Of a stretch of DNA of 43,496 nt, positions 13,551 to 34,340 are shown one piece after another. Source of the stretch: a virus. Taxonomy: Duplodnaviria; Heunggongvirae; Uroviricota; Caudoviricetes. The stretch's first letter is position 1, and each line of letters opens with the position of its first letter. Made by a program: the position numbers and the translations under genes. Below the pieces are notes generated by a model. The model ran no database searches. It was not told the DNA's origin and saw nothing but the letters and a program-made list of their open reading frames with translations. Location: the IMG/VR virus record IMGVR_UViG_2718218360_000017; one strand, given 5' to 3'.

Positions 13551-13949
13551 TCACATCTCGTAGGTAATTTTCCACAGGAGATCTGCCGATCCCCACATCA
13601 TAAACTCATCATCCCGGCGGTAGTCATACCCCTGAAGATTCATCTTCAGCAGTAATGCACTGAGCCCGGGAACTGCCTCCAGCGCAGGAAGAATTTTTTC
13701 TTCCATCCACATATCCAGTGCCGAGTCCGGTTCTTTTGCCCTGAGAAAAACCTCAATATGCAGTGTCGCCTCCCAGGTTCCCTCATCAACGAACTCGTCA
13801 GCAGCAGACGCATCTGTCAGGTAAACAGCAACAGCAGGCAGTTCCTGTTCATCAATAAAAACCGGGCGACCGTCAAACCAGCTCACCCTCTCAGAAATAT
13901 TGTCTTTCAGGGCAGACAGAACTGCCGCCCGTATTTCACGGTGTTTCAT
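13551..13949 (-). CDS. U: Tail terminator protein U
   Basis: 132 aa, [11 protein letters not shown]...GYDYRRDD...ITYEM, collinear with lambda gpU. Confidence 0.9.
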
Positions 13950-30241: not shown

Positions 30242-30637
30242 TTACCGAGTTGCTAATTTGCAACTCGCTTTTTCGTACTTACTGATAGTGATCTCGACCT
30301 TCCCTTCCGGGATAACCGGTCCCCACTCCACCAGCATTCTTTTCACCTGACTGTCGTCTTCCCACACACCCGCGTGGGTCAGGGCGTCAAACAGCGCCTT
30401 GTTATAGTTGTCCAGATCGCGGATCCGGTTATCCGGAGGAAACAACACGATCTCCACTGATGCAGGTGCCGACGTTGGTTTTGGCAGACGACGTAACTGC
30501 TCAACTATTGCTGCACACGCCGCGCTCTGGAATTTGCGCCCCGCCGCGCTTATCAGGCTCTTACCAGCAAACGCCCCTTTGTTGGGGTGTCGCCAGTACG
30601 TGTTCACGCTGGGCGGAAAAGGCAGGATCAGCTTCAT
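30242..30637 (-). CDS. rusA: Holliday junction resolvase RusA
   Basis: 131 aa, MKLILPFPPSVNTYWR...IRDLDNYNKALFDALTHAGVWEDDSQV.. typical of RusA. Confidence 0.85.
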   Translation of the reverse strand: MKLILPFPPSVNTYWRHPNKGAFAGKSLISAAGRKFQSAACAAIVEQLRRLPKPTSAPASVEIVLFPPDNRIRDLDNYNKALFDALTHAGVWEDDSQVKRMLVEWGPVIPEGKVEITISKYEKASCKLATR

Positions 30638-30960
30638 ACTTTCAGGCCCCTCTCATGTAACCAGTGGGTTGCACGCAGCCTTGCGTTTTCCTCACCGGCA
30701 AGCAGTGAGTGGATAATCCCGACCGCCTCGCTGTCGTCGTCCTTCACCGCGGTATGAAGCGTTATCCCCCGGGCCACGCCACGCTTTATCGTGATGACGC
30801 CTTTTTTCTCCAGTGCGCGAAGATGCTCTACCGCTGCATTCACTGAACGGTATCCCAGCATGGTTGCCACCTCCTGATTGGTTGGCGGAAAGCCACGCTC
30901 TTTCTGATAAGAAATCAGCATATCCAGCACCTGCTGCTGGCATTGAGTTAATGTCGTCAT
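30634..30960 (-). CDS. LexA-type N-terminal DNA-binding domain protein (no peptidase domain)
   Basis: 108 aa, ..LTQCQQQVLDMLISYQKERGFPPTNQEVATMLGYRSVNAAVEHLRALEKKGVI.. resembling the LexA winged-helix domain. Confidence 0.6.
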   Translation of the reverse strand: MTTLTQCQQQVLDMLISYQKERGFPPTNQEVATMLGYRSVNAAVEHLRALEKKGVITIKRGVARGITLHTAVKDDDSEAVGIIHSLLAGEENARLRATHWLHERGLKV

Positions 30961-31610
30961 GCCGCCATCTCCCTGACCAGTTTTTCCGCCTGCTGGCGAA
31001 CCTGCGCCAGAAACGCCTCACCACATGCCTCAAGTTCATCGCGCCCAATGTAGCTGATTGCCGGTCCCTTCCAGGTCTTGTCAAAAACAGCAATAGCACC
31101 AGCGAAAAAAGCTCCTGTCGGTACCTGCTTCTCGTCTTTCGGGATAAACCAGACAGGCAGTTCAAAACCAATACGCCCGCGAATAAAAGTAATATGATCT
31201 GCATCTTCCGGCCACCACACTTCGCTGGTGGCAGCTTTGATCAGGAAAACATAGCGCCCGCCTTTATCACGCATGGCACTGGCATGCTTCATGATGTAAC
31301 GCATGCCAGTGATGTATTTCCCCTCATGCTGACTGGCGCGGCTGTATGGGGGATTACCAAAGGCAGCACCTTTAAGCTCCGCAAGACGTTCTGACCAGTC
31401 ATGCGCCAGCGCGTTATCTTCCGCCGTGTAATACGCGGCACATTTGGCGTTATCACCGTCAGTAAACAGATCCAGAACAAACGGGCCAAACAGGGTGTTA
31501 ATTCCCCAGAAAATGTTGTCCGGCGTGCGCCACTGATCGCCCACTTCCTTCAGTTCATGGGCTGGTTTGTTCCGCAGTTCCACCAGCGCCTGGCAATATT
31601 TATTACTCAT
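30957..31610 (-). CDS. Phage DNA N6-adenine methyltransferase (Dam-like)
   Basis: NPPY catalytic motif (AFGNPPYSRAS); start MSNKYCQ.. overlapping the upstream stop. Confidence 0.8.
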   Translation of the reverse strand: MSNKYCQALVELRNKPAHELKEVGDQWRTPDNIFWGINTLFGPFVLDLFTDGDNAKCAAYYTAEDNALAHDWSERLAELKGAAFGNPPYSRASQHEGKYITGMRYIMKHASAMRDKGGRYVFLIKAATSEVWWPEDADHITFIRGRIGFELPVWFIPKDEKQVPTGAFFAGAIAVFDKTWKGPAISYIGRDELEACGEAFLAQVRQQAEKLVREMAA

Positions 31611-32104
31611 TAAGCCCCCACGTAATTCCCTGACAGATACCACTCTTCACCCGATGCAGCGCGCTTGCTGCTTTTCCGTAAGCACCGCTCACGACGCGCC
31701 AGAAAATTGTTTTGTTCTGGCTGGGAGTGGCTTTCACGGAATGCCGCCATCCACACGGTTGCAGCACGACGGTATAAGCCCCTGGACTCCAGTTCTTCAG
31801 CCTGGCGGGTCAGGCACAAAATCACCCGTGGATCGTTAGTGCCGACATAGAAATTGCGCACAGGTCTGGTTTCTCGAACTGGTTGTGGTTCCGGTTCCTG
31901 CGCTCTCTCAGTCAGGCGCGGGAAATGTCTGCGTGTATCTCCTTCACAACGGTGAGCCACACGCCCACTCTGACGTAACTTGCTTGCTGACTGCAGAACG
32001 CGCTGCCGTGAGTAACCTGCAAAAGCATCCGCAATGTCTCCGGAAGTACACCCCGGATGGGCTTCAATGAATTTCTGAACTTCATTCAAAAGACTCATGA
32101 TCAC
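31610..32104 (-). CDS. Hypothetical early protein downstream of the replication initiator
   Basis: 164 aa, translationally coupled on both sides (overlapping start/stop). Confidence 0.5.
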   Translation of the reverse strand: MIMSLLNEVQKFIEAHPGCTSGDIADAFAGYSRQRVLQSASKLRQSGRVAHRCEGDTRRHFPRLTERAQEPEPQPVRETRPVRNFYVGTNDPRVILCLTRQAEELESRGLYRRAATVWMAAFRESHSQPEQNNFLARRERCLRKSSKRAASGEEWYLSGNYVGA

Positions 32105-33093
32105 CCCCTGAATCCTGCCGGGATCTGGCTGTAGTCCACGTTGTCGTAACTGGACTTGAAGTACGGGTCTTCGCGTTTTTCGGTGTACGTGCTGACGGAC
32201 GGCGATAAGCGCAGGGAAAGCTCATCCCATTTTTCCCGCAGCTTCGACGGGCTGAGCACGTTACGGCACCAGAACGGATCGCGGCTGACGCGGCAGTACA
32301 TCTCGCAGATTTGTTTGTGAGTACGCCCATCCTGTACACACATCAGGCGAATTTCGTTTGCCCAGGCTGTCCAGTTCGGTTCTTTAGGACGTACCACTTC
32401 GCCGTCACATTCGGCGGCCTGCTCGTACAGAGCGATGATTTTTTTCCAGAGCCACTGTGCGCAGGTCAAATCATCCTGCGTTCCCCACTGGCGCTTTTTA
32501 GGGCTGAATACAACCGCATCAGGATGGCGAGTTAAAAAATCCTGTTCAGCCATCTGCGTGTCCGGTTGCGAAGCGTCCGGACGAGAAGAGGTTTTATTCT
32601 CTGTAGTAATCTCTGTTGTATTCTCTGTAAGATCATTGGGCCATTTTGACCCGATGACAGCGTGTCGTTTTGAACCAATGGATCGTGTCATTTTGCGCCC
32701 ATCCATCAGGTCACTTTGACCCGATGGAGAAGTGCATTTTGACCTAATGGATTCGTTCACTTTGACCTCTTCTAAAAGCTCACTTTCATAGTTGATCGTG
32801 TAGAAGTTGGTCATGTCACGCTTCGATTTATTGAGTTGCTCGCGACGCAAAACCCCAAGTGATTTCAGGCTTGCAAATGTGCGTTTCAGAGTGGACTCTG
32901 ACCAGAACGGAAACTGCTCCAGCCACTGTTCTGTCGTGTTATAAACCCAGCGAATTCCGCCATGCTCAGTGCCGGAATTCGTTTCATTCAGCCAGTAATG
33001 AAGCTGCTGCAACACAATTGCCTCATTCAGACCAATACGGCATGCAAGATCACGATTTATCACAATGGGCTGGGATGTCATTAACAGGCTCAT
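32101..33093 (-). CDS. Replication initiator protein containing the origin iterons within its coding sequence
   Basis: 330 aa; N-terminal HTH-like replisome-organiser region, an iteron-encoded linker, and a C-terminal domain. Confidence 0.7.
   Translation of the reverse strand: MSLLMTSQPIVINRDLACRIGLNEAIVLQQLHYWLNETNSGTEHGGIRWVYNTTEQWLEQFPFWSESTLKRTFASLKSLGVLRREQLNKSKRDMTNFYTINYESELLEEVKVNESIRSKCTSPSGQSDLMDGRKMTRSIGSKRHAVIGSKWPNDLTENTTEITTENKTSSRPDASQPDTQMAEQDFLTRHPDAVVFSPKKRQWGTQDDLTCAQWLWKKIIALYEQAAECDGEVVRPKEPNWTAWANEIRLMCVQDGRTHKQICEMYCRVSRDPFWCRNVLSPSKLREKWDELSLRLSPSVSTYTEKREDPYFKSSYDNVDYSQIPAGFRG
32590..32800. repeat. Phage replication origin: 6-7 iterons (consensus CAYTTTGACCYRATGG, ~23-bp spacing) next to an AT-rich TCTCTGT-repeat segment
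   Basis: cattttgacccgatga / gttttgaaccaatgga / cattttgcgcccatcc / cactttgacccgatgg / cattttgacctaatgg / cactttgacctc, preceded by tctctgtagtaatctctgttgtattctctgt. Confidence 0.65.
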
Positions 33094-33102
33094 GACCGAC
33101 CT

Positions 33103-33441
33103 CTATTTCCCTGAATTTACGACGAAACTGTTCGAGCGGGCTGAAGCACTCATGTTCATAGCCTTCACGGAGGTAGATAACCCGTTGTGTTTCCGGCTCC
33201 CAACGAATGACTCTGACGGGCACTCCGTAGTGATCTTTGAACCAGCGGTTAACTTGTCGCAAAGGACTGTCTCCTTCTGCCGGTTGAAATCCCCCACAGC
33301 CCACTCTGCAAAGCTGTGGGTTACAATTTCCCTGTCACCTGGTACATTCACTGCATAGCAATACTCCACCTTCGCTTTTCCACCCGGTACAGGAAGCGCA
33401 ATCAGTTGCGAGCGACGGTAGTGTGTTGTTAAACTGTTCAT
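33103..33441 (-). CDS. Hypothetical early protein; C-terminal third looks out of frame (possible frameshift with overlapping ORF 33050..33304)
   Basis: Start overlaps the upstream stop (ATGA); two overlapping frames both look protein-like. Confidence 0.4.
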
Positions 33442-34269: not shown

Positions 34270-34340
34270 TTAAGCAGGAATGTAGGATATCCAACATATC
34301 AATGTCAAGAATCCTACATGAGCATGTGGTAGGATTGCCT
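34270..34340. promoter_or_regulatory. OR operator cluster with divergent pRM/pR
   Basis: Palindromic sites TGTAGGATATCCAACA (34281-34296), AATCCTACAT-gagc-ATGTGGTAGGATT (34310-34336), plus a partial third site. Confidence 0.6.

What the first reader, a model, noticed from the sequence alone, without database searches (positions are those of the whole stretch)
32590..32800. Iteron-type replication origin embedded in the replication initiator gene
Six to seven ~23-bp-spaced repeats (CAYTTTGACCYRATGG) and an adjacent AT-rich TCTCTGT-repeat unwinding segment lie inside the 330-aa initiator ORF, as lambda ori lies within O. This is the likely phage ori.
Basis: seen in the sequence. Interest (0 to 1): 0.4.

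Follow-up and report, generated by a model that had tools for sequence, protein, structure and literature searches.

The report
Phage replication origin inside initiator gene
The repeats are real and are very probably the phage's replication origin, written into the codons for a floppy linker of its own initiator protein. The layout is a known one: it matches staphylococcal RepA_N plasmids more closely than phage lambda, and it sits in an unstudied initiator family found in about a third of complete E. coli genomes.

Summary
Observation confirmed. Window 32639-32802 holds seven in-register units spaced 24,23,23,23,23,23 bp: six recognisable cores and one vestige. Next to them are three 12-bp ACAGAGAWTAC repeats at 32594-32628 (33% GC, the least stable 40-mer of the gene). 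All lie inside the 330-aa initiator ORF (32101-33093, minus strand).

- The 23-bp period is not a multiple of 3.
- Synonymous sites are conserved here against a 78%-identical relative, while the protein is not.
- 58 of 68 homologous genes from many phyla have a 22-24 bp array at the same place.
- The cores are palindromes (GGTCA-AAR-TGACC) whose arms change in a compensatory way between lineages.
- Residue 67, at the start of the predicted recognition helix, tracks the half-site base: S-T 21/21, D-G 17/17, K-A 5/5.
- AlphaFold2 predicts disorder for exactly the residues encoded by the origin.

No helicase or loader gene follows, so host recruitment is inferred. Verdict: new member of a known kind, moderately interesting.

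The parts
32101..33093 (-). Replication initiator gene, 330 aa. N-terminal winged-helix domain is about aa 10-105, a disordered linker is aa 110-178, and a helical C-terminal domain is aa 183-297.
32779..33093 (-). Coding region of the N-terminal DNA-binding domain (aa 1-105). The predicted recognition helix is aa 66-79, with the specificity residue Ser67.
   Evidence: AF2 pLDDT 80-90. Winged-helix hits. Residue 67 against half-site base: mutual information 1.45 of 1.58 bits.
32755..32767 (-). Iteron core 1 (promoter-proximal), GGTCAAAGTGAAC.
32732..32744 (-). Iteron core 2, GGTCAAAATGCAC. The TGA would be in frame here, so it is TGC.
32709..32721 (-). Iteron core 3, GGTCAAAGTGACC, a perfect palindrome.
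32686..32698 (-). Iteron core 4, GCGCAAAATGACA, with a degenerate left arm.
32663..32675 (-). Iteron core 5, GTTCAAAACGACA. The in-frame TGA is replaced by CGA.
32639..32651 (-). Iteron core 6, next to the 12-mers, GGTCAAAATGGCC. The in-frame TGA is replaced by TGG. It lies 24 bp from core 5.
32778..32790 (-). Vestigial seventh unit, TATGAAAGTGAGC. It is in register but lacks the CA of the left arm.
32594..32628 (-). Three 12-bp repeats ACAGAGAWTAC (TCTCTGT on the + strand). This is the putative DNA-unwinding element.
   Evidence: least stable 40-mer of the gene. Nucleotide-level conservation across phyla.
32560..32582 (-). GC-rich inverted repeat GTCCGG-n11-CCGGAC just past the 12-mers. It is the first segment shared with SfII-type initiator genes.
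   Evidence: a comparable inverted repeat follows the 12-mers in 58% of relatives against 18% of control segments. for the junction. Weakest part of the anatomy.
34279..34308 (-). pR-like promoter (TTGACA-18-TACATT) upstream of cro. Its transcript would run through cII-like, DUF4222 and the initiator/ori.
   Evidence: consensus match only. Gene identities.

Best explanation
The segment 32560-32790 is the vegetative, theta-type replication origin of this lambdoid phage. It is embedded in the part of the initiator gene that encodes a disordered linker.

Proposed mechanism:
1. Dimers of the initiator's N-terminal winged-helix domain bind the six palindromic cores (GGTCA-AAR-TGACC), which are spaced 23 bp apart. 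Ser67, at the start of the recognition helix, reads the base next to the invariant CA/TG.
2. The resulting nucleoprotein array bends and stresses the DNA and opens the adjacent low-stability segment made of three ACAGAGAWTAC 12-mers.
3. The C-terminal domain then recruits host replication proteins, because the phage encodes no helicase or loader.
4. Transcription from pR runs through the origin, as in lambda.

What is shown by sequence analysis: the repeats, their DNA-level selection, their dyad symmetry, protein-DNA co-variation, the linker location, the low duplex stability, and family-wide conservation of the layout.

What is inferred: actual binding, unwinding at the 12-mers, origin activity and host recruitment.
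For: - **Not a peptide repeat.** Period 23/24 bp puts the repeat in all three reading frames. In all 3 copies where the core's TGA would be in frame it is TGC, CGA or TGG. The 4 out-of-frame copies keep TGA.
- **DNA-level selection.** Against HannyBb (78% nt identity), third-codon identity rises from about 0.45 to 0.8-0.95 over codons 111-190, while amino-acid identity does not rise. The cores are kept and the spacers vary.
- **Family-wide layout.** In 58 of 68 homologous genes, from Enterobacterales to Staphylococcus, Lactobacillaceae, Campylobacterota and Armatimonadota, the best period just after the N-domain is 22-24 bp. Median z is 6.5 against 3.1 in control parts of the same genes.
- **Dyad symmetry.** The cores are NNNCA-NNN-TGNNN with compensatory arm changes between lineages: GGTCA/TGACC, GTGCA/TGCAC, GGACA/TGTCC, GATCA/TGATC, CGACA/TGTCG and others.
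- **Protein-DNA co-variation.** Residue 67 predicts the half-site base: S-T 21/21, D-G 17/17, K-A 5/5. The next best alignment column has mutual information of 0.87 bits. The pairing cuts across overall similarity. L109 (K, GGA) is 89% identical to L110 (D, GGG) but 77% to L106 (K, GGA). The window is 61% identical to a D/GGG Pantoea protein but 49.5% to an S/GGT Staphylococcus one.
- **Linker location.** AF2 gives pLDDT of about 30 for residues 110-178, which are the codons carrying the iterons, 12-mers and inverted repeat.
- **12-mers are a DNA element.** Thr-Glu is encoded as ACAGAG in 127 of 140 cases in gene nt 380-600, against 4 of 55 elsewhere, in hosts of 31-64% GC. CAGAGA occurs at 5.16 per kb there against 0.11 per kb elsewhere.
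- **Modular inheritance.** N-domain, iterons and 12-mers travel as one module. SfII-type genes share the rest of the gene at 96% from about 32585-32597 onward. The C-terminal parts of the family fall into at least 6 unrelated clusters.
- **Uniqueness.** Iteron cores and 12-mers occur nowhere else in the window.
Against: - No experiment exists for this phage or family. I found no paper on it in the searchable library, and PMC12315714 says that mEp460_4F5 and the 'O-only' lambdoid phages are unstudied.
- The 12-mer segment is only moderately AT-rich (33% GC).
- There is no DnaA box or IHF consensus and no GATC enrichment, so nothing points to how the host helicase would be brought in.
- The fold evidence rests on a medium-confidence AF2 model (mean pLDDT 65; N-domain 80-90).
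- The residue-67 correlation was found by scanning all columns of related sequences. Phylogenetic non-independence is only partly controlled.
- Elevated synonymous identity could partly reflect recombination, although the pattern of conserved cores and variable spacers argues against that.
Confidence: 0.85

Rival explanations
1. The repeats are genuine initiator-binding sites, but they serve mainly for autoregulation or copy control (titration or handcuffing of the initiator, or braking of its own transcription). Strand opening and replisome assembly would then happen at another site.
For: Iterons in plasmids commonly double as control elements (general knowledge of iteron plasmids). The sites lie inside the pR transcription unit.
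Against: A conserved low-stability 12-mer block lies immediately next to the iterons in nearly all relatives. No second cluster of cores or 12-mers exists in the window. In the two characterised analogues, lambda (PMC7466680) and pSK41 (PMC5703833), the intragenic repeats are the origin.
Confidence: 0.07
2. The repeats bind a different protein, such as a host factor or another phage regulator like the CII-like or PerC-like proteins, and have nothing to do with the initiator encoded around them.
For: No direct binding data exist. The nucleotide-level conservation of the 12-mer across phyla could suggest a universal factor.
Against: The half-site base co-varies almost perfectly with residue 67 of the initiator's own N-domain. 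The array always travels with that N-domain, whatever the host, the neighbouring genes or the C-terminal domain.
Confidence: 0.05
3. The repeats are a by-product of slippage or duplication in a low-complexity linker-coding region, or a peptide repeat, with no function at the DNA level.
For: The region encodes a disordered, compositionally simple linker. The TENTTEITTENK peptide is a 4-aa repeat, and the CAGAGA motif is usually read in one frame (157 of 169).
Against: The 23-bp period is not a multiple of 3. Stop-codon avoidance edits occur exactly where the frame demands them. Synonymous sites are more conserved than the protein. The arms show compensatory palindromic changes. ACAGAG is used for 127 of 140 Thr-Glu pairs here against 4 of 55 elsewhere. 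The period and position are conserved in 58 of 68 genes.
Confidence: 0.02

Closest known systems
RepA_N plasmid replicons of Firmicutes (prototype pSK41 Rep and its intragenic ori; structures 4PTA, 4PQL, 5KBJ)
   Same: - Three-part initiator of the same size (319 aa against 330 aa): an N-terminal winged-helix DNA-binding domain, a linker encoded by the origin DNA, and a modular, host-specific C-terminal domain (PMC5703833).
[quoted passage not shown]
- The period is the same 23 bp.
- Short AT-rich tandem repeats follow the iterons.
- No helicase or loader is encoded alongside.
- The N-domain and ori are exchanged as a cassette, as in pPR9 in staphylococci (PMC5703833) and between SfII-type genes and the window here.
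   Different: - No detectable sequence similarity: Pfam RepA_N is not hit and hhalign probability is 0.13.
- The element is in a lambdoid prophage of a Gram-negative host, transcribed from pR, rather than in a plasmid with antisense-RNA control.
- There are six to seven copies degraded by coding constraints, rather than four near-identical boxes.
- The follower repeats are 12-mers of fixed sequence ACAGAGAWTAC, rather than 15-mers TGATACTGATTTTAT.
Phage lambda ori within gene O (also Stx phages 933W and P27)
   Same: - The origin consists of initiator-binding iterons plus an AT-rich tract in the middle of the initiator gene, transcribed from pR. Lambda has 4 iterons and Stx phages have 6 (PMC7466680).
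- The iterons have dyad symmetry.
- The order along the gene is iterons, then the AT-rich tract, then (from my own knowledge of lambda ori) an inverted repeat.
- The N-domain and iterons are swapped as a specificity module among lambdoid phages.
   Different: - The protein is not a lambda O homologue by Pfam, NCBIfam or PDB sequence tests. Only the PHROG label says 'O-like'.
- The iteron sequence is unrelated.
- No P-type loader or DnaB/DnaC-type gene follows; the next gene is PerC-like. According to PMC12315714, 34 of 314 lambdoid phages have this O-only arrangement and their replication 'is not yet understood'.
PLE RepA of Vibrio cholerae satellites
   Same: It is a RepA_N-fold initiator in a Gram-negative mobile element, recognised by structure rather than by BLAST. 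It binds semi-palindromic A-tract repeats (PMC7145576).
   Different: The PLE ori lies in a non-coding region rather than inside the gene, and it depends on helper-phage functions. I did not compare the sequences here.

Membership tests
Iteron-type origin embedded in its initiator gene (generic kind: lambda ori/O, pSK41 ori/rep) | Several regularly spaced direct repeats inside the initiator ORF | tested here: met
   Seven units at 23/24 bp, z 8.4 against a shuffle maximum of 5.8, inside ORF 32101-33093.
Iteron-type origin embedded in its initiator gene (generic kind: lambda ori/O, pSK41 ori/rep) | The repeats are under DNA-level selection and are not a peptide repeat | tested here: met
   The period is not a multiple of 3. 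Stop-avoidance edits are 3/3 and 4/4. There is a synonymous-site conservation peak.
Iteron-type origin embedded in its initiator gene (generic kind: lambda ori/O, pSK41 ori/rep) | An adjacent easily melted (AT-rich) segment | tested here: met
   32592-32631 is the least stable 40-mer of the gene and lies in the lowest 1.1% of the window; GC is 33%.
Iteron-type origin embedded in its initiator gene (generic kind: lambda ori/O, pSK41 ori/rep) | The cognate initiator binds the repeats | not testable with these tools
   Indirect support only: residue 67 co-varies with the half-site base, and the arms show compensatory palindromic changes.
Iteron-type origin embedded in its initiator gene (generic kind: lambda ori/O, pSK41 ori/rep) | The fragment supports initiator-dependent replication | not testable with these tools
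   Needs ori-cloning or marker-frequency analysis.
Lambda O protein family | Sequence homology to lambda O (Pfam Phage_rep_O or an equivalent curated model) | tested here: not met
   No Pfam hit at E<=0.01; at E<=10 the only hit is Slx4 at 0.011, which is spurious. No NCBIfam hit. Only the PHROG 391 label 'O-like'.
Lambda O protein family | A partner helicase-loader gene (P or DnaC-like) immediately downstream | tested here: not met
   The next genes are PerC-like, Dam, a LexA DNA-binding-domain protein and RusA.
RepA_N replicons | N-terminal domain with the RepA_N / DnaD-NTD winged-helix fold | tested here: met
RepA_N replicons | Sequence membership in Pfam RepA_N (PF06970) | tested here: not met
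   No Pfam hit. hhalign of the family profile against pSK41 Rep gives probability 0.13.
RepA_N replicons | Iterons central in rep, encoding a linker between the N- and C-terminal domains | tested here: met
   The AF2 disordered stretch 110-178 coincides with the origin codons. pSK41 description in PMC5703833.
RepA_N replicons | Semi-palindromic iterons with inverted arms converging on an A-tract | tested here: met
   GGTCA-AAR-TGACC in the window and equivalents in relatives. Criterion taken from PMC7145576. pSK41 boxes GTGTCAAAAGGACAC at 23-bp spacing.
RepA_N replicons | C-terminal domain that is variable or host-specific and recruits host primosome proteins | tested here: inconclusive
   The C-terminal parts fall into at least 6 unrelated BLAST clusters, so modularity is met. 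The partner protein is unknown.
Rep_3-type iteron plasmids (F, R6K, pPS10, RK2-like) | DnaA boxes flanking the iterons and the unwinding element | tested here: not met
   No perfect TTWTNCACA in 32000-33400, only three one-mismatch sites, none within the iteron/12-mer segment.

The most novel reading that the evidence does not exclude
The cassette of N-domain, 23-bp palindromic iterons and ACAGAGAWTAC 12-mers is a pan-bacterial, RepA_N-like phage replication module that no curated family model recognises.

- It has a simple one-residue, one-base specificity code: residue 67 S, D or K pairs with T, G or A.
- It has a sequence-specific unwinding element. The 12-mers would be bound, probably as single strands, by the initiator itself.
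- This would explain how 'O-only' lambdoid phages replicate, namely in a plasmid-like way, with the variable C-terminal domain docking directly onto host primosome proteins.
Probability: 0.35. Interest if true: 0.65.

Novelty: new member of a known kind. Interest (0 to 1): 0.5.

Why it matters
Lambdoid phages whose replication module is a single 'O-like' gene with no helicase or loader were recently flagged as not understood and unstudied (PMC12315714).

This analysis gives that class a concrete, testable origin with base-pair coordinates. It offers a predicted recognition residue with a swap experiment (S67D or S67K against GGT to GGG or GGA iterons). It also provides a characterised structural analogue, RepA_N/pSK41, whose C-terminal domain binds host primase.

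The N-domain plus origin module is present in 1839 of 5426 complete E. coli genomes and is almost always annotated 'hypothetical protein'. Recognising it would therefore improve prophage annotation and replicon typing.

The 12-mer, conserved at the nucleotide level from E. coli to Staphylococcus prophages, is an unexplained feature worth an experiment.

Tried and rejected
- **Whole-window motif count.** I replaced this with periodicity tests.
- **Sequence family searches.** Pfam, NCBIfam and PDB sequence searches of the initiator all came back empty.
- **hhalign against pSK41 Rep.** No signal.
- **Literature search for the motifs as text strings.** It returned only unrelated primers. Searches for Phg_2220_C and for prophage iterons found nothing on this family.
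- **Host-factor sites.** No DnaA boxes, no IHF sites and no GATC enrichment in or near the origin.
- **RNA and intragenic promoters.** No Rfam family. No promoter-like site inside the gene.
- **Antisense ORF.** The 94-aa ORF on the + strand at 32435-32719 overlaps the array. It is one of many mechanical ORFs and has no support, so I did not pursue it.
- **First codon-usage test for the 12-mers.** It was circular, because the region was defined by the motif. I redid it with a fixed coordinate range.
- **Homologue search for structure prediction.** The full-length search returned only close relatives (72% identity or more), so the C-domain alignment used for AF2 is shallow.

Full report
**1. What is in the sequence**

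The window is essentially Escherichia virus mEp460_4F5, with 99.8% identity over the gene. The finding lies in a 330-aa ORF on the minus strand, 32101-33093. The ORF sits in a lambdoid early-right operon. Its order is a pR-like promoter (34308 to 34279), a P22-Cro-like gene, a CII-like gene, a 112-aa DUF4222 gene, the initiator, a PerC-like gene, Dam, a LexA-DBD-only gene and RusA.

Read in register from 32642, the + strand shows seven 23-bp units.
- Self-identity is 0.565 at lag 23 and 0.513 at lag 46. At other lags it is about 0.16-0.35.
- Over all positions and lags 7-60, this is the second strongest periodicity of the 43.5-kb window (z 8.4). The maximum over 100 base shuffles (composition only, not dinucleotide-preserving) is z 5.8.
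- Among the top-ranked periodicities, the 23/46-bp array is the only one whose period is not a multiple of three.

Immediately promoter-distal are three 12-bp repeats, ACAGAGAWTAC on the coding strand and TCTCTGT on the + strand, at 32594-32628. This stretch is 33% GC against 52% for the window. It contains the least stable 40-mer of the gene, in the lowest 1.1% of the window. The observation and its coordinates are therefore correct.

The evidence comes from the phasing.

**2. It is a DNA feature, not a protein feature**

A 23-bp period puts successive copies in all three reading frames. On the coding strand the conserved core is GGTCAAARTGACC, which contains TGA.
- In the three copies where that TGA would be in frame, it reads TGC, CGA or TGG.
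- In the four copies where it is out of frame, TGA is kept.

This explains the 'degenerate' copies as stop-codon avoidance.

Phage HannyBb carries the same type of gene at 78% nucleotide identity. Against it, third-codon-position identity is about 0.4-0.6 along the gene but rises to 0.8-0.95 over codons 111-190. Amino-acid identity there is no higher than elsewhere. Within the array, the cores are kept and the spacers differ.

**3. Family-wide conservation of the layout**

The N-terminal 111 residues define a widespread family. Relatives share 45-80% identity and occur in prophages of Enterobacterales, Pseudomonas, Acinetobacter, Comamonas, Hydrogenimonas, Staphylococcus, Bacillus, Lactobacillaceae, Tissierellia, Armatimonadota and others.
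- In 58 of 68 genes long enough to test, the best period in nt 250-650 is 22-24 bp (23 bp in 42 of them). Median z is 6.5.
- Control parts of the same genes give scattered lags and a median z of 3.1, and none exceeds z 6.

The repeat sequences differ between lineages but share one design. This is a 13-bp palindrome NNNCA-NNN-TGNNN with an A/T-rich centre, whose arms change in a compensatory way. Examples are GGTCA/TGACC, GGGCA/TGCCC, GTGCA/TGCAC, GGACA/TGTCC, GATCA/TGATC, TATCA/TGATA, ACCCA/TGGGT and CGACA/TGTCG. That is the signature of a site read by a two-fold symmetric dimer.

**4. Evidence that the encoded initiator reads these sites**

I scanned all 110 alignment columns of 57 distinct N-domains against the half-site base next to the invariant CA.
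- Column 67 carries 1.45 of the 1.58 bits available. The next column carries 0.87 bits.
- The pairings are Ser-T 21/21, Asp-G 17/17 and Lys-A 5/5.
- The pairing cuts across overall relatedness. Pantoea L109 (K, GGA) is 89% identical to L110 (D, GGG) but only 77% to L106 (K, GGA).
- The window protein (S, GGT) is closer to a D/GGG Pantoea protein (61%) than to an S/GGT Staphylococcus protein (49.5%).

In the AlphaFold2 model, residue 67 sits at the N-terminus of helix 66-79. This is the second helix of a helix-turn-helix and is followed by a beta-hairpin wing.

**5. Structure and where the origin sits in the protein**

AF2 was run on 40 sequences and gave a mean pLDDT of 65.
- The N-domain (residues 10-105) is confident, at pLDDT 80-90.
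- The helical C-domain (183-297) scores 70-85.
- Residues 110-178 score about 30. These are exactly the residues encoded by the iterons, the 12-mers and the following inverted repeat.

So the origin is written into a disordered linker, where coding constraints are weakest.

**6. The 12-mers**

The motif ACAGAGA(W/C)TAC, in 2-5 copies at 11-12 bp spacing, follows the iterons in most relatives. This holds whatever their iteron type, host phylum or C-terminal domain. It is usually read as Thr-Glu-x-Thr, so I tested whether the peptide or the DNA is conserved.
- In gene nt 380-600, 127 of 140 Thr-Glu pairs use ACAGAG. Elsewhere in the same genes the figure is 4 of 55. The hosts range from 31 to 64% GC.
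- A few genes also carry copies in another frame.

The element is therefore conserved as DNA. A plain AT-rich melting region would not need a fixed sequence, so I infer sequence-specific recognition. One possibility is single-strand binding by the initiator. Phage lambda O is reported to bind ssDNA (PMC7466680, citing Learn et al. 1997), and from my own knowledge some plasmid Rep proteins do so as well. This step is conjecture.

A short GC-rich inverted repeat follows (32560-32582). Comparable inverted repeats follow the 12-mers in 58% of relatives, against 18% of control segments. This is the weakest part of the anatomy.

**7. Modularity**

Megablast shows that many phages (SfII, SfIV, SKA5 and others) share the 3' half of the gene at about 96% but not the 5' half. 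Homology with SfII begins right after the last 12-mer, at about window 32585-32597.

SfII-type genes have an HTH_36 N-domain and their own 15-bp repeats. SfV-type genes have a third N-domain and other repeats.

Conversely, the window's type of N-domain and origin is joined to at least six unrelated C-terminal sequence clusters. N-domain, iterons and 12-mers therefore behave as one inherited cassette.

**8. Comparison with known systems**

In lambda, iterons and an AT-rich tract lie in the middle of the initiator gene and are transcribed from pR. Lambda has four iterons and Stx phages have six (PMC7466680).

Membership in the O family fails. There are no Pfam, NCBIfam or PDB sequence hits, and no P-like gene follows.

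The closest characterised system is the RepA_N plasmid replicon.
- The literature describes pSK41 Rep as follows. The N-terminal domain (1-120) binds four Rep boxes central in rep. Residues 121-199, encoded by the origin, form a dispensable linker. The host-specific C-terminal domain binds DnaG (PMC5703833).
- RepA_N iterons are described as semi-palindromic repeats whose arms converge on a poly-A tract (PMC7145576).
- I fetched pSK41 and found the four boxes, GAAATGTCAAAAGGACACGTCTA, at the same 23-bp period. They are followed by three AT-rich 15-mers.

Sequence similarity is undetectable (hhalign probability 0.13). I therefore file the element as working like, and folding like, a RepA_N replicon, not as a Pfam RepA_N member.

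**9. Mechanism and what remains open**

The most likely mechanism is as follows. Initiator dimers occupy the six cores. A 23-bp spacing is about 2.2 helical turns, so neighbouring dimers are rotated by about 70 degrees. This would favour a wrapped or helical array. The array strains the adjacent 12-mers, which open, and the C-domain brings in host proteins.

No helicase, loader or primase gene is present, and there are no DnaA boxes or IHF sites nearby. The recruitment step is therefore unknown.

A recent paper notes that 34 of 314 lambdoid phages have such O-only modules. It says none has been studied, that their replication is not understood, and that mEp460_4F5 itself is unstudied (PMC12315714).

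**10. Novelty and interest**

An origin inside the initiator gene is textbook, so the finding is a new member of a known kind. Four points lift it above routine:
- The family is invisible to curated models. It is annotated 'hypothetical protein' in most of the 1839 of 5426 complete E. coli genomes that carry the module.
- It resembles RepA_N in fold and architecture, including the identical 23-bp period.
- It has a clean residue-to-base correspondence.
- Its 12-mer is conserved at the nucleotide level across phyla.

All claims about function are computational. The experiments that would settle them are listed separately.

Noticed in passing
window 1440-2030: Period 9/45-bp tandem repeats, which may encode collagen-like Gly-X-Y (not translated or checked). 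This is the strongest periodic signal in the window (z 9.7).
   Followed up: no
window 32104-32175 (last ~24 codons of the initiator); L004, L005, L006, L007: The C-terminal tail EDPYFK(S/A)SYDNVDYSQIPAGFRG is shared by three initiator types with unrelated N-domains: the window type, SfII/SfIV and SfV/Stx2a_1447. In SfV it is the only part shared (76 nt at 96%). The AF2 model is low-confidence just before it. It is a candidate docking peptide for a host replication protein.
   Followed up: partly
L004:1501-2442 (SfII) gene nt 311-370; L006:2001-2819 (SfV) gene nt 256-375: Other initiator types carry their own repeats in the linker-coding region. SfII has 4 x 15-bp CTGACCCGTCAAAAT, and SfV has roughly 24-bp GGTAGTGCAGGAG-type repeats. 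These are probably the origins matching their HTH_36 N-domains.
   Followed up: partly
window 31610-32104 (-): The gene downstream of the initiator, in the position where lambda has P, encodes a 164-aa protein with a PerC/ANR-like C-terminus and a weak MarR-like N-terminus. It is not a helicase loader.
   Followed up: partly
window 32585-33093; E. coli RefSeq genomes: The N-domain plus origin module occurs in 1839 of 5426 complete E. coli genomes: 157 at 99% identity or more, and about 1600 at 80-90%. It is almost always annotated 'hypothetical protein', and no Pfam or NCBIfam model covers the N-domain.
   Followed up: yes
L168 (pSK41) 13705-13754: Three 15-bp AT-rich tandem repeats TGATACTGATTTTAT lie directly after the four 23-bp Rep boxes inside pSK41 rep. 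They mirror the position of the 12-mers in the phage origin.
   Followed up: partly
window 32639-32802, spacers between cores: Each 23-bp unit has a second conserved element in the spacer: CCAT 4-5 nt upstream of the core, or ATSSAT/ATCGA in relatives. The A at position -4 carries 1.7 bits. Its role is unknown.
   Followed up: partly
window 30634-31643 (-): The phage encodes its own Dam methylase (Pfam Dam, E 1e-45) and a 108-aa protein consisting of a LexA DNA-binding domain only. GATC is not enriched in the origin (3 sites in 260 bp).
   Followed up: partly
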